Shown here: positions 17,788 to 19,985 of the stretch, one piece after another | Position numbering within the stretch: position 1 is the first letter of the stretch | Layout of the letters: each line of letters opens with the position of its first letter | From: Mobula hypostoma | Lineage: Eukaryota | Assembly: GCF_963921235.1 (NCBI RefSeq) | Contig: NC_086108.1 | Span: 40,922,001 to 40,986,000, forward strand | Reading direction: 5' to 3' | Length of the DNA stretch: 64,000 nt | Notes under the pieces: model-generated | What the model was told of the DNA's origin: nothing | Database searches by the model: none | The model's input: the letters and a program-made list of their open reading frames with translations, nothing else | Position numbers and translations under genes: made by a program

Positions 17788-19985
17788 TTCATGTTCAAGT
17801 CAAGTTTAAGTTCAAGTTTGTTATCTTTCAACCGTACAAATGGTAAAATGCTTGGGGAAGTGGTTTAATGTGTCACTGACAGATGGGGCCAATGTCACCA
17901 ATGCTGTGAAGCAAACAGATGAATGGCTGAAGAAAATTGACAAATCCGAACTTCCCGGTAAATTCAAGACCTGGCTGTACCAATACGGCATTCTGCCCAG
18001 GCTTCTCTGGCTCTTCACACTTTATGAGTTCTCCATGACTGCCTTAGAGGGCATTGAGAGGTAAACCAACAAGCACCTGCGGAGATGGTTGGGAGTTCCC
18101 CCAAGCTTCTCTTCAGTGGGCCTCTACATTCGTTCTGGGCAACCACAGCTTCCCCTGTCATCTGTTGTGGAGGAATTCAAGGTGGCAAAATGCTGAACCT
18201 TATTAAGCTTGAGAGATTCCAATGATGTCTTGGTAAAGCAAGCAGGCGTTACAACCAGATCTGGGCGCAAGTGGGCAGCCAACGCAGCTGTGGAGCAGGC
18301 AGTGTGTTCTCCGAAGCTGCGAGATATCATCGGCAACCCCTGCATCGGGTGGCAAGGCCTCAACTCAGTTCACTTCCAGCAGTTGGGAAACGCAAGCATA
18401 GGAACAGGCAAGACATGGTACAGGCAGAAGTACGAATCCGTGAGGAAGAGAAGCGGATGTCAAAGGCAGTGGAACAAGAGTCTCAGGGTGCCTGGACAAA
18501 ATGGGATCTGCCTAAGTGCAAAATCTCATGGGCAGAGTTATGGAGACTGGAGCCCTTCTGTACTTCCTTCCTCTTGCGATCCGTGTATGACACCCTTCCT
18601 TCACCATTATATCCGTACAAATGGGGAATGAGAGAGGACCTGAACTGTAAGCTCTGTGGTCAAAAGGGGACACTGGCTCATATACTGTCCGGGTGTAAAA
18701 CAGCTCTAACTCAAGGACGGTATAGGTGCCGCCATGATAAGGTGCTTCTGGCTCTTGCTGACACACTAGAGCAGGAGAGATGCAAGAAGAGGACGGCTAG
18801 CACAGACTTGAGGAAGGCTATCACCTTCATCAAAGAGGAAGCCAGGCCTTTCGTAACCAAACAACCAAAGCCCAATCTGCTGCTAACGGCCAGGTCCTGG
18901 GAGATGAGAGTCAATGTGGGAAGGAAGTTGCAGTTGCCGGATGTGGTGCACACAACCCTACGCCCGGACATAATACTGTGGTCTACTGAAGACAGGAAAA
19001 TAACTCTGGTTGAGCTGACTGTGCCATGGGAGGAGGGATGGGAAGAGGCCCATGAGAGAAAAGCCTTGAAGTACCAGCCCTTAGTGCAGAAGTGTAAAGA
19101 CAAAGGATGGCAGGCATGGTTGTTCCCTGTGGAGATCGGCTGCAGAGGTTTCCCAGCCCAATCAGCATGGCAGTTGTTGTCAGATCTGCACCTGGACGAA
19201 AGGAGCAAAAAACAAGCAGCTCATAGGATGGGCAGAACGAGCCTCTTGTTGGATTTGGAGTAGGCGAGAGGAGGGGAGTTGGAAGCCAGGAGCAGATGGG
19301 CAGTGATTTGGCCACCACTGTCGGCCCACCAACTGCAGAGTGTCGTGTTTAAGGGTCGAAACACTCCGTGAAGGTTGGGAACCACCTGATGACATCTGCT
19401 CCTGGCTGAAGGCTGTGGTTACCTTAGAATGCACCCTGACAGGTGTATGTAACAAATATACCATCAAACAAGACAATGTTCCTCTAGACCAAGGTGCACA
19501 ACACAGTCCAAATAACTCACACAAAACATATAAAGTGATATTACCACAAATCAATTAACACATTAACAAATAATAAAAAACATACCCAGAAGATTGACTT
19601 TTCACATAAGGTGTATTTATGACAGAAGTTAAAAACTAAGCAGTATAATGCTACTGGAGCTTCATAAGAGATGACACCTGGGTGGTGGCAGGGAGTTCAG
19701 TCGTCTCACAGCTTGGGGGAGAAGCTGTCTCCTATCATAATAGTCCTTATCCCAATGCTATGGTACCTTCTGCTTAATGGTAGGGGATCAAAGAGATTGT
19801 GGGACAATGGGGGGTATCCTTGACAATGCTAGGGGCCCTATGGATGCAGCTGTCCTGACAATTATCTCAGACGGGGGGAAGTGAGACCCTGATGACTCTC
19901 TCATCAGTCCTCGCAATTCTTTGTAGAGTCTTGCAAGTCAGGTGCCTTGCACTTCCTATAGCAGATAGTCAGAACATGTATTACC
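17788..19985 (-). mobile_element. Rex1/Babar-type 3' fragment split by the HERO insertion (17788-17836 tail; about 19453-19985 body)
   Basis: The (AAGTTC)n tail plus tttgttatctttcaaccgtac on the left continues on the right as aaatataccatcaaacaagacaatgttcctctagaccaagg..., then antisense coding sequence (tggtaccttctgcttaatggtagg, roughly LLPSGRRY). Confidence 0.7.
17840..19450 (+). mobile_element. HERO-type (R2 superfamily) non-LTR retrotransposon, 5'-truncated: RT end, CCHC zinc knuckle, REL endonuclease, 3' UTR
   Basis: VKCLGKWF..LPGKFKTWLYQYGILPRLLW; CKLCGQKGTLAHILSGC..GRY..RHDKVL; LRPDIILWS..LVELTVPWE..AHERKALKY..PVEIGCRGF (PD-(D/E)xK type). After a frameshift the C-terminus reads ASCWIWSRREEGSWKPGADGQ-stop (TGA 19304-19306). 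Two in-frame stops and a few frameshifts. Confidence 0.9.

What the first reader, a model, noticed from the sequence alone, without database searches (positions are those of the whole stretch)
19329..19397. Candidate permuted (pseudoknotted) hammerhead ribozyme with a kink-turn elbow in the 3' UTR of a HERO retrotransposon
Seen: all hammerhead core motifs lie within about 60 nt, but in an order that is none of types I/II/III: GAGUGUC (19338-44), GUGUUU (19345-50), AA, GGGUC (19353-57), GAAACACUC (19358-66), then AACCAC (19380-85), CUGAUGA (19386-92), CAUCU (19393-97). Stem III GAGUGU/ACACUC is a perfect 6 bp and puts GUC exactly in the cleavage register opposite GAAA. Stem I GUGUUU/AACCAC pairs 5 of 6 directly next to CUGAUGA. 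Stem II CAUCU/GGGUC pairs 4 of 5, with two G-U pairs and a C-C mismatch at the normally paired 10.1-11.1 position. The CUGAUGA strand therefore arrives from downstream and pairs into the loop closed by stem III, forming a pseudoknot. Stem III continues through a 3-nt bulge plus GA (CGU-GA-A, 19367-72, opposite G-CA, 19335-37; one substitution from a k-turn consensus) into CCAACU/GGUUGG (19329-34/19373-78). Known: stems I and II lie side by side in active hammerheads, k-turns bend helices sharply, R2 elements use 5' HDV-like ribozymes and Penelope elements use type I hammerheads. I do not know of a described hammerhead in HERO 3' UTRs, and standard descriptors would miss this strand order. Inference: a new hammerhead topology or a hammerhead-derived protein-binding fold. 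Caveats: this copy is mutated, and sequence 3' of the putative cut was retrotransposed, so cleavage cannot be constitutive.
Basis: partly seen in the sequence, partly recalled or inferred. Interest (0 to 1): 0.9.

Follow-up and report, generated by a model that had tools for sequence, protein, structure and literature searches.

The report
Rearranged hammerhead ribozyme in HERO retrotransposons
A complete hammerhead ribozyme core, wired in an unusual strand order, sits just after the coding end of a widespread family of animal jumping genes, so it is probably a new natural form of this classic self-cutting RNA.

Summary
A covariance model built on it finds it on the sense strand in 64 of 79 diverged HERO-like loci from metagenomes and in two families of the window's own genome. 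Every hammerhead core base is near-invariant. N7 varies freely. Position 17 is G in only 2 of 77.

GGGUC pairs with the upstream strand at 19323-19327, which restores G10.1-C11.1. The strand after CUGAUGA instead forms a 15-bp helix, P1, with the last codons of the ORF.

The strand order S-G-C was published in 2023 as the "type-SGC" non-circularly permuted hammerhead, which cleaves in vitro (PMC10085705). The HERO form is a further variant: the chain is opened inside block C, between A9 and 10.1, by P1 and hairpin P2. I found no paper that links a hammerhead to HERO elements.

Cleavage is not shown. 39 of 40 sampled genomic copies span the predicted cut site.

Verdict: a real feature, a new variant of a known kind, and of high interest.

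The parts
17841..19455 (+). 5'-truncated, decayed copy of a HERO-like non-LTR retrotransposon with a restriction-like endonuclease. It is frameshifted and has a 13-nt deletion in a 3' hairpin after about 19435.
   Evidence: 91% identity over 1637 columns to near-full-length copy L111. C-terminal CCHC and endonuclease motifs. Deletion seen against 27 of 29 copies.
19284..19298 (+). P1 5' strand. It lies in the last codons of the ORF; the true stop codon UGA is at 19304-19306.
   Evidence: Perfect 15-bp complement of 19393-19407. The frame 19085-19306 matches the conserved C-terminus of relatives.
19299..19322 (+). P2 hairpin filling the whole gap between P1 and stem II. Its loop (19306-19315) carries the 6-nt palindrome UGGCCA at 19309-19314.
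   Evidence: 35 of 47 instances give one hairpin spanning the gap, and 25 of those 35 have a 6-nt palindrome in the loop.
19323..19327 (+). Stem II, 10.1-10.5 strand (GGCCC).
   Evidence: Pairs with 19353-57. This helix has 91.9-93.4% of cells paired, with changes on both sides at 4 of 5 pairs. G at 10.1 in 73 of 77.
19329..19334 (+). P3 5' strand (CCAACU).
   Evidence: Pairs with 19373-78. Changes on both sides at 5 pairs.
19335..19337 (+). K-turn non-bulged strand (3n, 2n, 1n). The window has GCA; the family majority has GGA.
   Evidence: 1n is A in 70 of 77 and 2n is G in 62 of 77. GGA in 27 of 29 own-family copies.
19338..19343 (+). Stem III, 16.6-16.1 strand (GAGUGU).
   Evidence: Pairs with 19361-66. 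93-95% of cells paired; U16.1 in 75 of 77.
19344..19344 (+). Position 17 (C). The predicted cleavage is between 19344 and 19345.
   Evidence: By register with GAAA and CUGAUGA. Position 17 is C31, U22, A22, G2 of 77. Cleavage itself was not tested.
19345..19350 (+). Stem I, 1.1-1.6 strand (GUGUUU; family majority GUGGUU). It is followed by the AA linker (19351-52) to stem II.
   Evidence: Pairs with 19380-85. 95.5-97.7% of cells paired, with all 5 counted pairs changed on both sides, although this helix was not in the search model.
19353..19357 (+). Stem II, 11.5-11.1 strand (GGGUC).
   Evidence: Position 11.1 is C in 67 and U in 8 of 78.
19358..19366 (+). G12 A13 A14, then stem III 15.1-15.6 (ACACUC).
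   Evidence: G12 76/78, A13 78/78, A14 77/78, A15.1 76/78.
19367..19372 (+). K-turn bulged strand: L1-L3 (CGU), then G1b A2b A3b.
   Evidence: 1b is G in 65 of 75 and 2b is A in 71 of 75.
19373..19378 (+). P3 3' strand (GGUUGG).
19380..19385 (+). Stem I, 2.6-2.1 strand (AACCAC).
19386..19392 (+). C3 U4 G5 A6 N7 G8 A9 (CUGAUGA).
   Evidence: C3 73/77, U4 76/77, G5 76/77, A6 76/77, G8 75/77, A9 75/77. N7 is U45, A16, C13, G3.
19393..19407 (+). P1 3' strand, starting directly after A9.
   Evidence: 30 of 46 instances have at least 7 uninterrupted pairs starting at A9+1, against 3% in a cross-locus control.
19408..19455 (+). Rest of the 3' UTR, with hairpins, up to the element's GUAACAA(G) tail.
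   Evidence: Homology to the other copies ends here, and the flanks differ between copies.

Best explanation
Window 19284-19407 is one decayed copy of a conserved RNA domain that ends the ORF and opens the 3' UTR of HERO-like retrotransposons. It is a hammerhead ribozyme in a non-classical strand order.

Read 5' to 3', the parts are: P1 5' strand, P2 hairpin, stem II 10.x strand, P3 5' strand, k-turn, stem III 16.x strand, H17, stem I 1.x strand, AA linker, stem II 11.x strand, GAAA, stem III 15.x strand, k-turn bulge, P3 3' strand, stem I 2.x strand, CUGANGA, P1 3' strand.

The four helices I, II, III and P3 are the same four as in the published, catalytically active 'type-SGC' hammerhead. 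P3 joins the outer ends of I and II. Here, however, the chain is closed between P3 and stem III by a k-turn, and it is opened between A9 and 10.1. At that opening P1 and P2 leave the core with no unpaired bases, as a perfect four-way junction.

Shown: the helices, their covariation, the core conservation, the position relative to the ORF, and the wide distribution.

Inferred: intact copies fold like a hammerhead and self-cleave 3' of position 17 (window C19344). Because P1, P2 and stem II overlap the stop codon, a terminating ribosome would keep the ribozyme unfolded. Because about 32 bp hold the two products together, cleavage may be slow, reversible or conditional. The most likely use is processing of read-through or head-to-tail multimer transcripts, which would give the next unit a defined 5' end about 225 nt before its ORF. 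The fold may double as the 3' recognition structure for the element's reverse transcriptase.
For: 1. Distribution. The model (R1) contains only P3 and III. It gives 84 hits at E<=0.01 in 413 kb, all on the element's sense strand, and one hit in the 64-kb window. 64 of 79 metagenome loci are hit. 12 of the 15 misses lack sequence beyond the ORF end. The hit loci are 33-83% identical in protein to the query.

2. Core bases (78 distinct rows). C3 73/77, U4 76/77, G5 76/77, A6 76/77, G8 75/77, A9 75/77, G12 76/78, A13 78/78, A14 77/78, A15.1 76/78, U16.1 75/77. N7 takes all four bases. Position 17 is G in 2 of 77. G10.1-C11.1 is G-C in 63 and G-U in 8 of 77.

3. Helices. 93.6% of 1634 cells pair, against 30-48% with slid partners. 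460 cells change on both sides, against 52-120. Stems I (95.5%) and II (91.9%) were not part of the model that made the alignment. The result is the same on a structure-blind MAFFT alignment.

4. P1 and P2.

5. A hammerhead with these four helices in this ring order cleaves at the predicted site in vitro, and compensatory mutants support all four helices (PMC10085705, section 14 read).

6. Head-to-tail arrangement. It is seen in 13 metagenome contigs and in own-genome loci. This places a motif copy 170-250 nt before the ORF match of the next unit in L031, L032, L122 and L123. Motif copies also lie upstream of the ORF in L050, L116, L118 and L126.
Against: No cleavage was observed by any means here.

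39 of 40 genomic copies, sampled by their last 124 nt, continue upstream across the predicted cut. One stops about 4 nt before it. Templates that were copied were therefore uncut, and cut 3' fragments are not a common template.

A cut here would separate the ORF from the 3' end that target-primed reverse transcription needs.

The upstream partial copies in front of full-length copies start at various places, not at the cut site.

The published authors assumed that block C cannot be interrupted (PMC10085705, section 13). Whether a helix pair inserted between A9 and 10.1 is compatible with catalysis is untested.

The rows are related copies, so the counts are not independent events.
Confidence: 0.7

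Rival explanations
1. The RNA adopts the hammerhead-like fold but does not cleave in its life cycle, or it sits on the ligated side of the equilibrium. It serves as a rigid, recognisable 3' structure that the element's reverse transcriptase binds to start target-primed reverse transcription, as R2 protein binds its structured 3' UTR.
For: Copied templates span the site in 39 of 40 copies. The domain lies at the ORF end, close to the element's 3' end. The two would-be products are held by P1, II, P3 and III. In Penelope-like elements the hammerhead was not needed for insertion in vitro, and no reads ended at its cut site (PMC11167929, passages read). That R2 protein binds its 3' UTR is recalled from memory; the abstract listing of PMC12222951 mentions a pseudoknotted RNA.
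Against: A binding scaffold does not obviously need every catalytic base, free variation only at N7, and avoidance of G at position 17. This pattern is the signature of active hammerheads. Relatives with the same four helices do cleave (PMC10085705).
Confidence: 0.24
2. On this reading the motif is a plain type-SGC hammerhead whose stem II is formed by the 5 nt after CUGAUGA (19393-97) with GGGUC (19353-57).
For: In the window's own subgroup this pairing scores 4-5 of 5 (WIN, L010, L031, L055).
Against: Over 47 distinct instances it averages 2.5 of 5, and it scores 0-2 in many. The upstream strand averages 4.6 of 5 and covaries. The same 5 nt open a 9-17-bp helix with the ORF end.
Confidence: 0.03
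3. The match is a chance resemblance, or a different motif such as a box C/D-like k-turn RNA built on UGAUGA and CUGA.
For: Weak Rfam matches to an archaeal C/D RNA (sR10) at E = 4.4 and 2.4, far below the gathering score. The minimum-free-energy fold of 19300-19420 alone is no better than shuffles (z = +0.74).
Against: The motif is conserved with covariation in 64 of 79 diverged loci. The full domain folds well (z = -2.6 for the window copy and -5.8 for L010). No terminal-stem partner for a C/D motif is conserved.
Confidence: 0.01

Closest known systems
Type-SGC (HRIMA-1) non-circularly permuted hammerhead ribozymes; Eckert, Friedrich, Weinberg & Weinberg, NAR 2023 (PMC10085705; sections 7, 13, 14, 15 and 18 part 1 read, supplement text searched)
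   Same: The order is cleavage-site block, then GAAA block, then CUGANGA. Stem I is joined to stem II by a 2-3-nt linker. A fourth helix ties the other sides of I and II together; here that helix is P3. The core bases are the same and the structure has two pseudoknots.
   Different: In type SGC the 10.x strand of stem II follows CUGANGA directly, because block C was assumed uninterruptible. Here it lies at the 5' end of the motif, and P1 plus P2 (about 55 nt) stand between A9 and 10.1. P3 is joined to stem III by a k-turn, where type SGC has its free ends or a 0-44-nt link. The hosts also differ: those RNAs came from metatranscriptomes with hairpin ribozymes (circular RNA agents), and this one sits in an autonomous animal retrotransposon. 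That paper, and the one supplement file held as text, make no link between these ribozymes and retrotransposons or animal genomes.
Classical hammerheads of types I-III in mobile elements: Penelope-like elements and retrozymes (listings; PMC11167929 passages)
   Same: Same catalytic core. The association with retroelements that occur head to tail is shared. So is the open question of what the ribozyme does for transposition.
   Different: Those are nested three-way junctions found by standard models. This one is a double pseudoknot and gives no Rfam match. Those elements carry a GIY-YIG endonuclease or are non-autonomous. This element has a restriction-like endonuclease.
HDV-like ribozymes at the 5' end of R2 and other non-LTR elements (recalled from memory: Eickbush & Eickbush 2010; Ruminski et al. 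2011; not read here)
   Same: A self-cleaving RNA in an element of the R2 superfamily that may depend on co-transcription. In head-to-tail arrays the HERO motif lies upstream of the next ORF.
   Different: It is a different ribozyme class and lies at the ORF end rather than the element's 5' end. It cuts inside itself and leaves about 60 nt of ribozyme on the upstream RNA.
Kink-turn (Kt-7, box C/D type; rules recalled from memory)
   Same: A 3-nt bulge is followed by G.A and A.G opposite GA. The flanking pair -1b/-1n is C-G or U-G. A regular helix lies on each side.
   Different: No structure or protein binding is known for this one. A subgroup (L035, L039) has AUCA in place of NGA on the non-bulged strand.

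Membership tests
Hammerhead ribozyme (any topology) | Conserved core: C3 U4 G5 A6 N7 G8 A9, G12 A13 A14, and the A15.1-U16.1 pair | tested here: met
   Each base is present in 73-78 of 77-78 distinct instances. N7 is U45, A16, C13, G3.
Hammerhead ribozyme (any topology) | Position 17 is any base but G, in register between stems III and I | tested here: met
   C31, U22, A22, G2 of 77. The rows are related, so this is not a formal probability.
Hammerhead ribozyme (any topology) | Helices I, II and III abut the core and are supported by covariation; 10.1-11.1 is usually G-C | tested here: met
   I 95.5%, II 91.9% and III 95.0% of cells paired, with changes on both sides at 5, 4 and 5 pairs. 10.1-11.1 is G-C in 63 and G-U in 8 of 77.
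Hammerhead ribozyme (any topology) | Site-specific self-cleavage 3' of position 17, abolished by core mutations | not testable with these tools
   Needs a bench assay. The only indirect look (copies truncated at the site) found 1 near-site case in 40.
Hammerhead types I, II, III (Rfam models) | Nested three-way junction with hairpin-closed stems; matches the Rfam hammerhead models | tested here: not met
   No hammerhead match up to E = 10 on the window copy or on L010. The stems cross each other.
Type-SGC non-circular permutation (PMC10085705) | Block order S, G, C with a short I-to-II linker and a fourth helix joining I and II | tested here: met
   The order is read directly. The linker is A-rich, with A in 60-67 of 78 at its last two positions. 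P3 has 92.1% of cells paired.
Type-SGC non-circular permutation (PMC10085705) | Block C is uninterrupted: the stem II 10.x strand directly follows CUGANGA | tested here: not met
   The strand after A9 pairs with the ORF end (P1). The 10.x strand lies upstream.
Kink-turn | 3-nt bulge plus tandem G.A/A.G between two helices | tested here: met
   The loop is 3 nt opposite 6 nt. 1b is G 65/75, 2b is A 71/75, 1n is A 70/77, 2n is G 62/77.
Kink-turn | Sharp kink in three dimensions, or binding by an L7Ae-family protein | not testable with these tools
   No RNA 3D tool is on hand.
HERO clade of non-LTR retrotransposons | Single ORF with a reverse transcriptase, then a CCHC motif and a restriction-like endonuclease at the C-terminus | tested here: met
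   RVT_1 and zf-RVT are annotated on relatives, with a weak zf-RVT hit on the window fragment. The RPD...ELTVPWE...K motifs are invariant in A1.
HERO clade of non-LTR retrotransposons | Groups with reference HERO elements in a reverse-transcriptase tree | not tested
   No Repbase references are on hand. Named relatives come from fish, amphioxus and bivalves, taxa in which HERO is reported (PMC7650587 and PMC4640811, passages).

The most novel reading that the evidence does not exclude
HERO elements carry an active hammerhead of a wiring not yet described: the SGC ring opened inside block C by a four-way junction and closed by a k-turn.

On this reading its folding is gated by translation termination. 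It cuts head-to-tail or read-through transcripts into unit-length RNAs, possibly circularised as in retrozymes. The palindromic P2 loop lets two RNAs kiss.

This would make an autonomous LINE-like element a ribozyme-processed replicon. It would also show that the hammerhead core tolerates a helix pair between A9 and 10.1.
Probability: 0.3. Interest if true: 0.92.

Novelty: new variant of a known kind. Interest (0 to 1): 0.82.

Why it matters
Hammerheads were held to come in three circular permutations until 2023. Three non-circular ones were then proposed, on the premise that three sequence blocks cannot be interrupted.

This motif keeps the whole core but breaks one block. It offers a natural k-turn answer to a geometric puzzle that the 2023 authors left open: how the end of stem III reaches the helix that joins I and II.

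It is also invisible to standard hammerhead models. Yet it has over a thousand first-look candidates in one vertebrate genome and is conserved across distant animal lineages. Ribozyme censuses of animal genomes may therefore be missing a whole class.

It also adds a second ribozyme type to the R2 superfamily of retrotransposons. Each question is directly testable with a short RNA of about 125 nt.

Tried and rejected
1. Rfam scans of the window copy and of L010 at E<=10 gave no ribozyme family, only weak chance matches.

2. Folding 19300-19420 alone gave z = +0.74. That stretch cut P1 in half, so the result misleads.

3. Earlier notes of this scan, searched by sequence and by words, held nothing.

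4. The look-up of sequencing runs listed no RNA holder and offered only Logan contigs. Read laying on X1, X2, X7 and X10 found no place where many molecules begin or end. Several contigs bridge the cut site. One 120-nt contig of X2 (probably DNA) begins exactly at 1.1, which I do not count as evidence.

5. Test for copies starting at the cut site: 1 near-site case in 40, so no pile-up.

6. Test for upstream partial copies that begin at the cut site, in front of full-length copies: none. They begin at various points.

7. A free search for P1 with one mismatch allowed had a weak control: observed mean 10.8 bp against 8.0 for flanks of other loci, some of which are related. I replaced it with the anchored test.

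8. My first regex parse placed stem II too far upstream in some loci. This was corrected by limiting the distance.

9. L096 was left out of alignment A2 as doubtful, and duplicate rows were removed. The model later found L096 at 36.5 bits.

10. Literature searches found nothing that links a hammerhead to HERO elements: 'hammerhead ribozyme + HERO + non-LTR' (0 papers), 'type-SGC + hammerhead' (only the 2023 paper), 'non-circular permutation / hammerhead / retrotransposon' from 2023, and permuted-hammerhead terms. Subscription journals are not covered.
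Full report
**Observation.** They belong to a 5'-truncated, decayed copy (17841-19455, 91% identical to the near-full-length copy L111) of a single-ORF non-LTR retrotransposon. The protein of this element ends in a CCHC motif and a restriction-like endonuclease. Named relatives come from fish, amphioxus and bivalves. This fits the HERO clade but was not tested against reference elements. The window copy carries a frameshift. The conserved C-terminus continues in another frame to a stop codon at 19304-19306. 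The family is abundant in the window's own 3.5-Gb genome, with 1394 and 1304 first-look candidates, of which 40 were scored each time. Its 3' ends are young: the 40 best matches to a typical copy's last 124 nt are 98-100% identical.

**The window copy is mutated.** Among 29 other copies, stem I reads GUGGUU in 26, a perfect 6 bp with AACCAC. The strand opposite the bulge reads GGA in 27, which gives a consensus k-turn. 27 copies have 13 more bases in a downstream hairpin.

**Comparative material.** An alignment of 17 relatives (A1) was used to fetch 79 loci from metagenome contigs, at 33-83% protein identity. An anchored parse then found 47 distinct instances, including a second family of the window's genome at about 46% protein identity, some of whose copies have open frames.

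A covariance model was built from 46 instances with only the nested helices P3 and III. It gave 84 hits at E<=0.01 in 413 kb on both strands. All hits were on the element's sense strand, and there was a single hit in the 64-kb window (19321-19394, 74 bits). 64 of the 79 metagenome loci are hit. 12 of the 15 misses have no or too little sequence past the ORF end. Three (L067, L070, L101) have more than 300 nt and no hit.

**Structure.**
- On the structure-blind MAFFT alignment, 91.9% of 976 cells pair, against 29-48% when the partners are slid by 1-3 columns. 270 cells change on both sides, against 36-77.
- On the 78 distinct model-aligned rows, 93.6% of 1634 cells pair against 30-48%, and 460 cells change on both sides against 52-120. 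Stems I (95.5%) and II (91.9%) were not in the model.
- Stem II is formed by the strand just 5' of GAAA with a strand upstream of the whole motif (window 19323-27).
- Those 5 nt begin P1. In 30 of 46 instances at least 7 uninterrupted pairs start right after A9 and end 20-28 nt before stem II, against 3% in a cross-locus control. In the window P1 has 15 bp (19284-98 with 19393-19407).
- The gap between P1 and stem II is a single hairpin, P2, in 35 of 47 instances.
- The core therefore meets P1, P2 and stem II with no unpaired bases. I read this as a perfect four-way junction in which stem II can still stack on the G12.A9 pair. That reading is inference.
- Between stem III and P3 lies a 3-plus-6-nt loop with the k-turn signature: 1b G 65/75, 2b A 71/75, 1n A 70/77, 2n G 62/77.

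**Core.** C3 73/77, U4 76/77, G5 76/77, A6 76/77, G8 75/77, A9 75/77, G12 76/78, A13 78/78, A14 77/78, A15.1 76/78, U16.1 75/77. N7 is U45, A16, C13, G3. Position 17 is C31, U22, A22, G2. Position 10.1 is G in 73 of 77. Free variation at N7 alone, together with avoidance of G at 17, is the pattern of working hammerheads. That rule is recalled from memory. The rows are related copies, so the counts overstate the number of independent events.

**What is known.** Eckert et al. 2023 (PMC10085705; sections 7, 13, 14, 15 and 18 part 1 read) described non-circular permutations of the hammerhead. It cleaves at the predicted site, and compensatory mutants support all four helices. They assumed that each block, including CUGANGA plus the adjoining stem II strand, cannot be interrupted. 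They also noted that they could not see how the end of stem III reaches the fourth helix.

The HERO motif has the same four helices in the same ring order. It differs in being opened inside block C by P1 and P2, and closed between the fourth helix (P3) and stem III by a k-turn. That paper and the one supplement file held as text make no link to retrotransposons or animal genomes. My searches found no paper on a hammerhead in HERO elements. No Rfam family matches.

**Does it cut?** This is not shown.
- Of the 40 best genomic matches to the 124 nt downstream of the predicted cut, 39 continue upstream across it. 33 were fetched as 95-nt pieces, 6 were already aligned, and 1 was judged from its coordinates. 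One copy ends about 4 nt before the site. Copied templates were therefore uncut.
- The listed public runs were contigs with no RNA on record and could not show ends.
- The same puzzle stands for Penelope-like elements, where the hammerhead was dispensable for insertion in vitro (PMC11167929, passages).

**Likely role.** This part is inferred.
- The stop codon lies inside P2, and P1's 5' strand is the last five codons. A terminating ribosome would therefore keep P1, P2 and probably stem II unfolded.
- Head-to-tail units are common. In 13 metagenome contigs the ORF start follows the 3' UTR. In those loci the next unit's ORF match begins 240-440 nt after the stop codon; in 7 of them the gap is 244-315 nt (L034, L035, L036, L037, L044, L076, L098).
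- In the own genome, 4 of 12 near-full-length copies of the first family and 3 of 6 of the second are preceded by a partial copy. The tail of that partial copy abuts the next 5' end directly.
- A motif copy thus often lies upstream of an ORF. In L031, L032, L122 and L123 it ends 170-250 nt before the start of the ORF match.
- I therefore favour processing of read-through or multimer transcripts, with RT recognition as a second or alternative role.

Noticed in passing
window 19306-19315 (P2 loop; UGGCCA at 19309-19314) and the same loop in loci L031-L124: The P2 hairpin loop carries a 6-nt palindrome in 25 of 35 clean hairpins: UGAUCA 16, UGGCCA 7, UGUACA 1, UCAUGA 1. The central bases change while self-complementarity is kept, as expected for a kissing-loop contact between two RNA molecules. 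A subgroup has a short tetraloop-type P2 instead.
   Followed up: partly
L034-L037, L044, L054, L076, L079, L080, L087, L090, L098, L101; own genome L114, L116, L118, L121, L122, L123, L126: Elements often lie head to tail. The next unit's ORF match starts 240-440 nt after the previous stop codon in the loci where both could be placed. In the own genome the upstream copy's tail abuts the next 5' end directly. Whether this comes from insertion into tails, from multimer templates or from circular templates was not resolved.
   Followed up: partly
own genome, L122-L127 (for example G000:C12:93546654-93549989): A second HERO-like family, about 46% identical in protein to the query, has copies with no stop in the matched frame. 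It carries the same motif with CUGAAGA.
   Followed up: partly
window 19284-19303: The last codons (peptide ...SWKPGADGQ) double as the 5' strand of P1. The SWKP stretch is conserved in relatives (A1), so the protein end and the RNA helix may constrain each other.
   Followed up: no
window about 19435: The window copy lacks 13 nt of an 8-bp hairpin that 27 of 29 other copies have between the ribozyme and the tail.
   Followed up: no
L103:2336-2410, L104:4292-4366: In the most distant relatives (33-34% protein identity) the motif lies about 660-700 nt after the stop codon instead of 6-60 nt. It has a shortened stem III and no k-turn bulge in the alignment.
   Followed up: no
window 19660-19745: A weak Rfam match to the lncRNA region RFPL3-AS1_1 (21 bits against a gathering score of 70, E = 0.012) lies just outside the element. 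It is probably chance.
   Followed up: no
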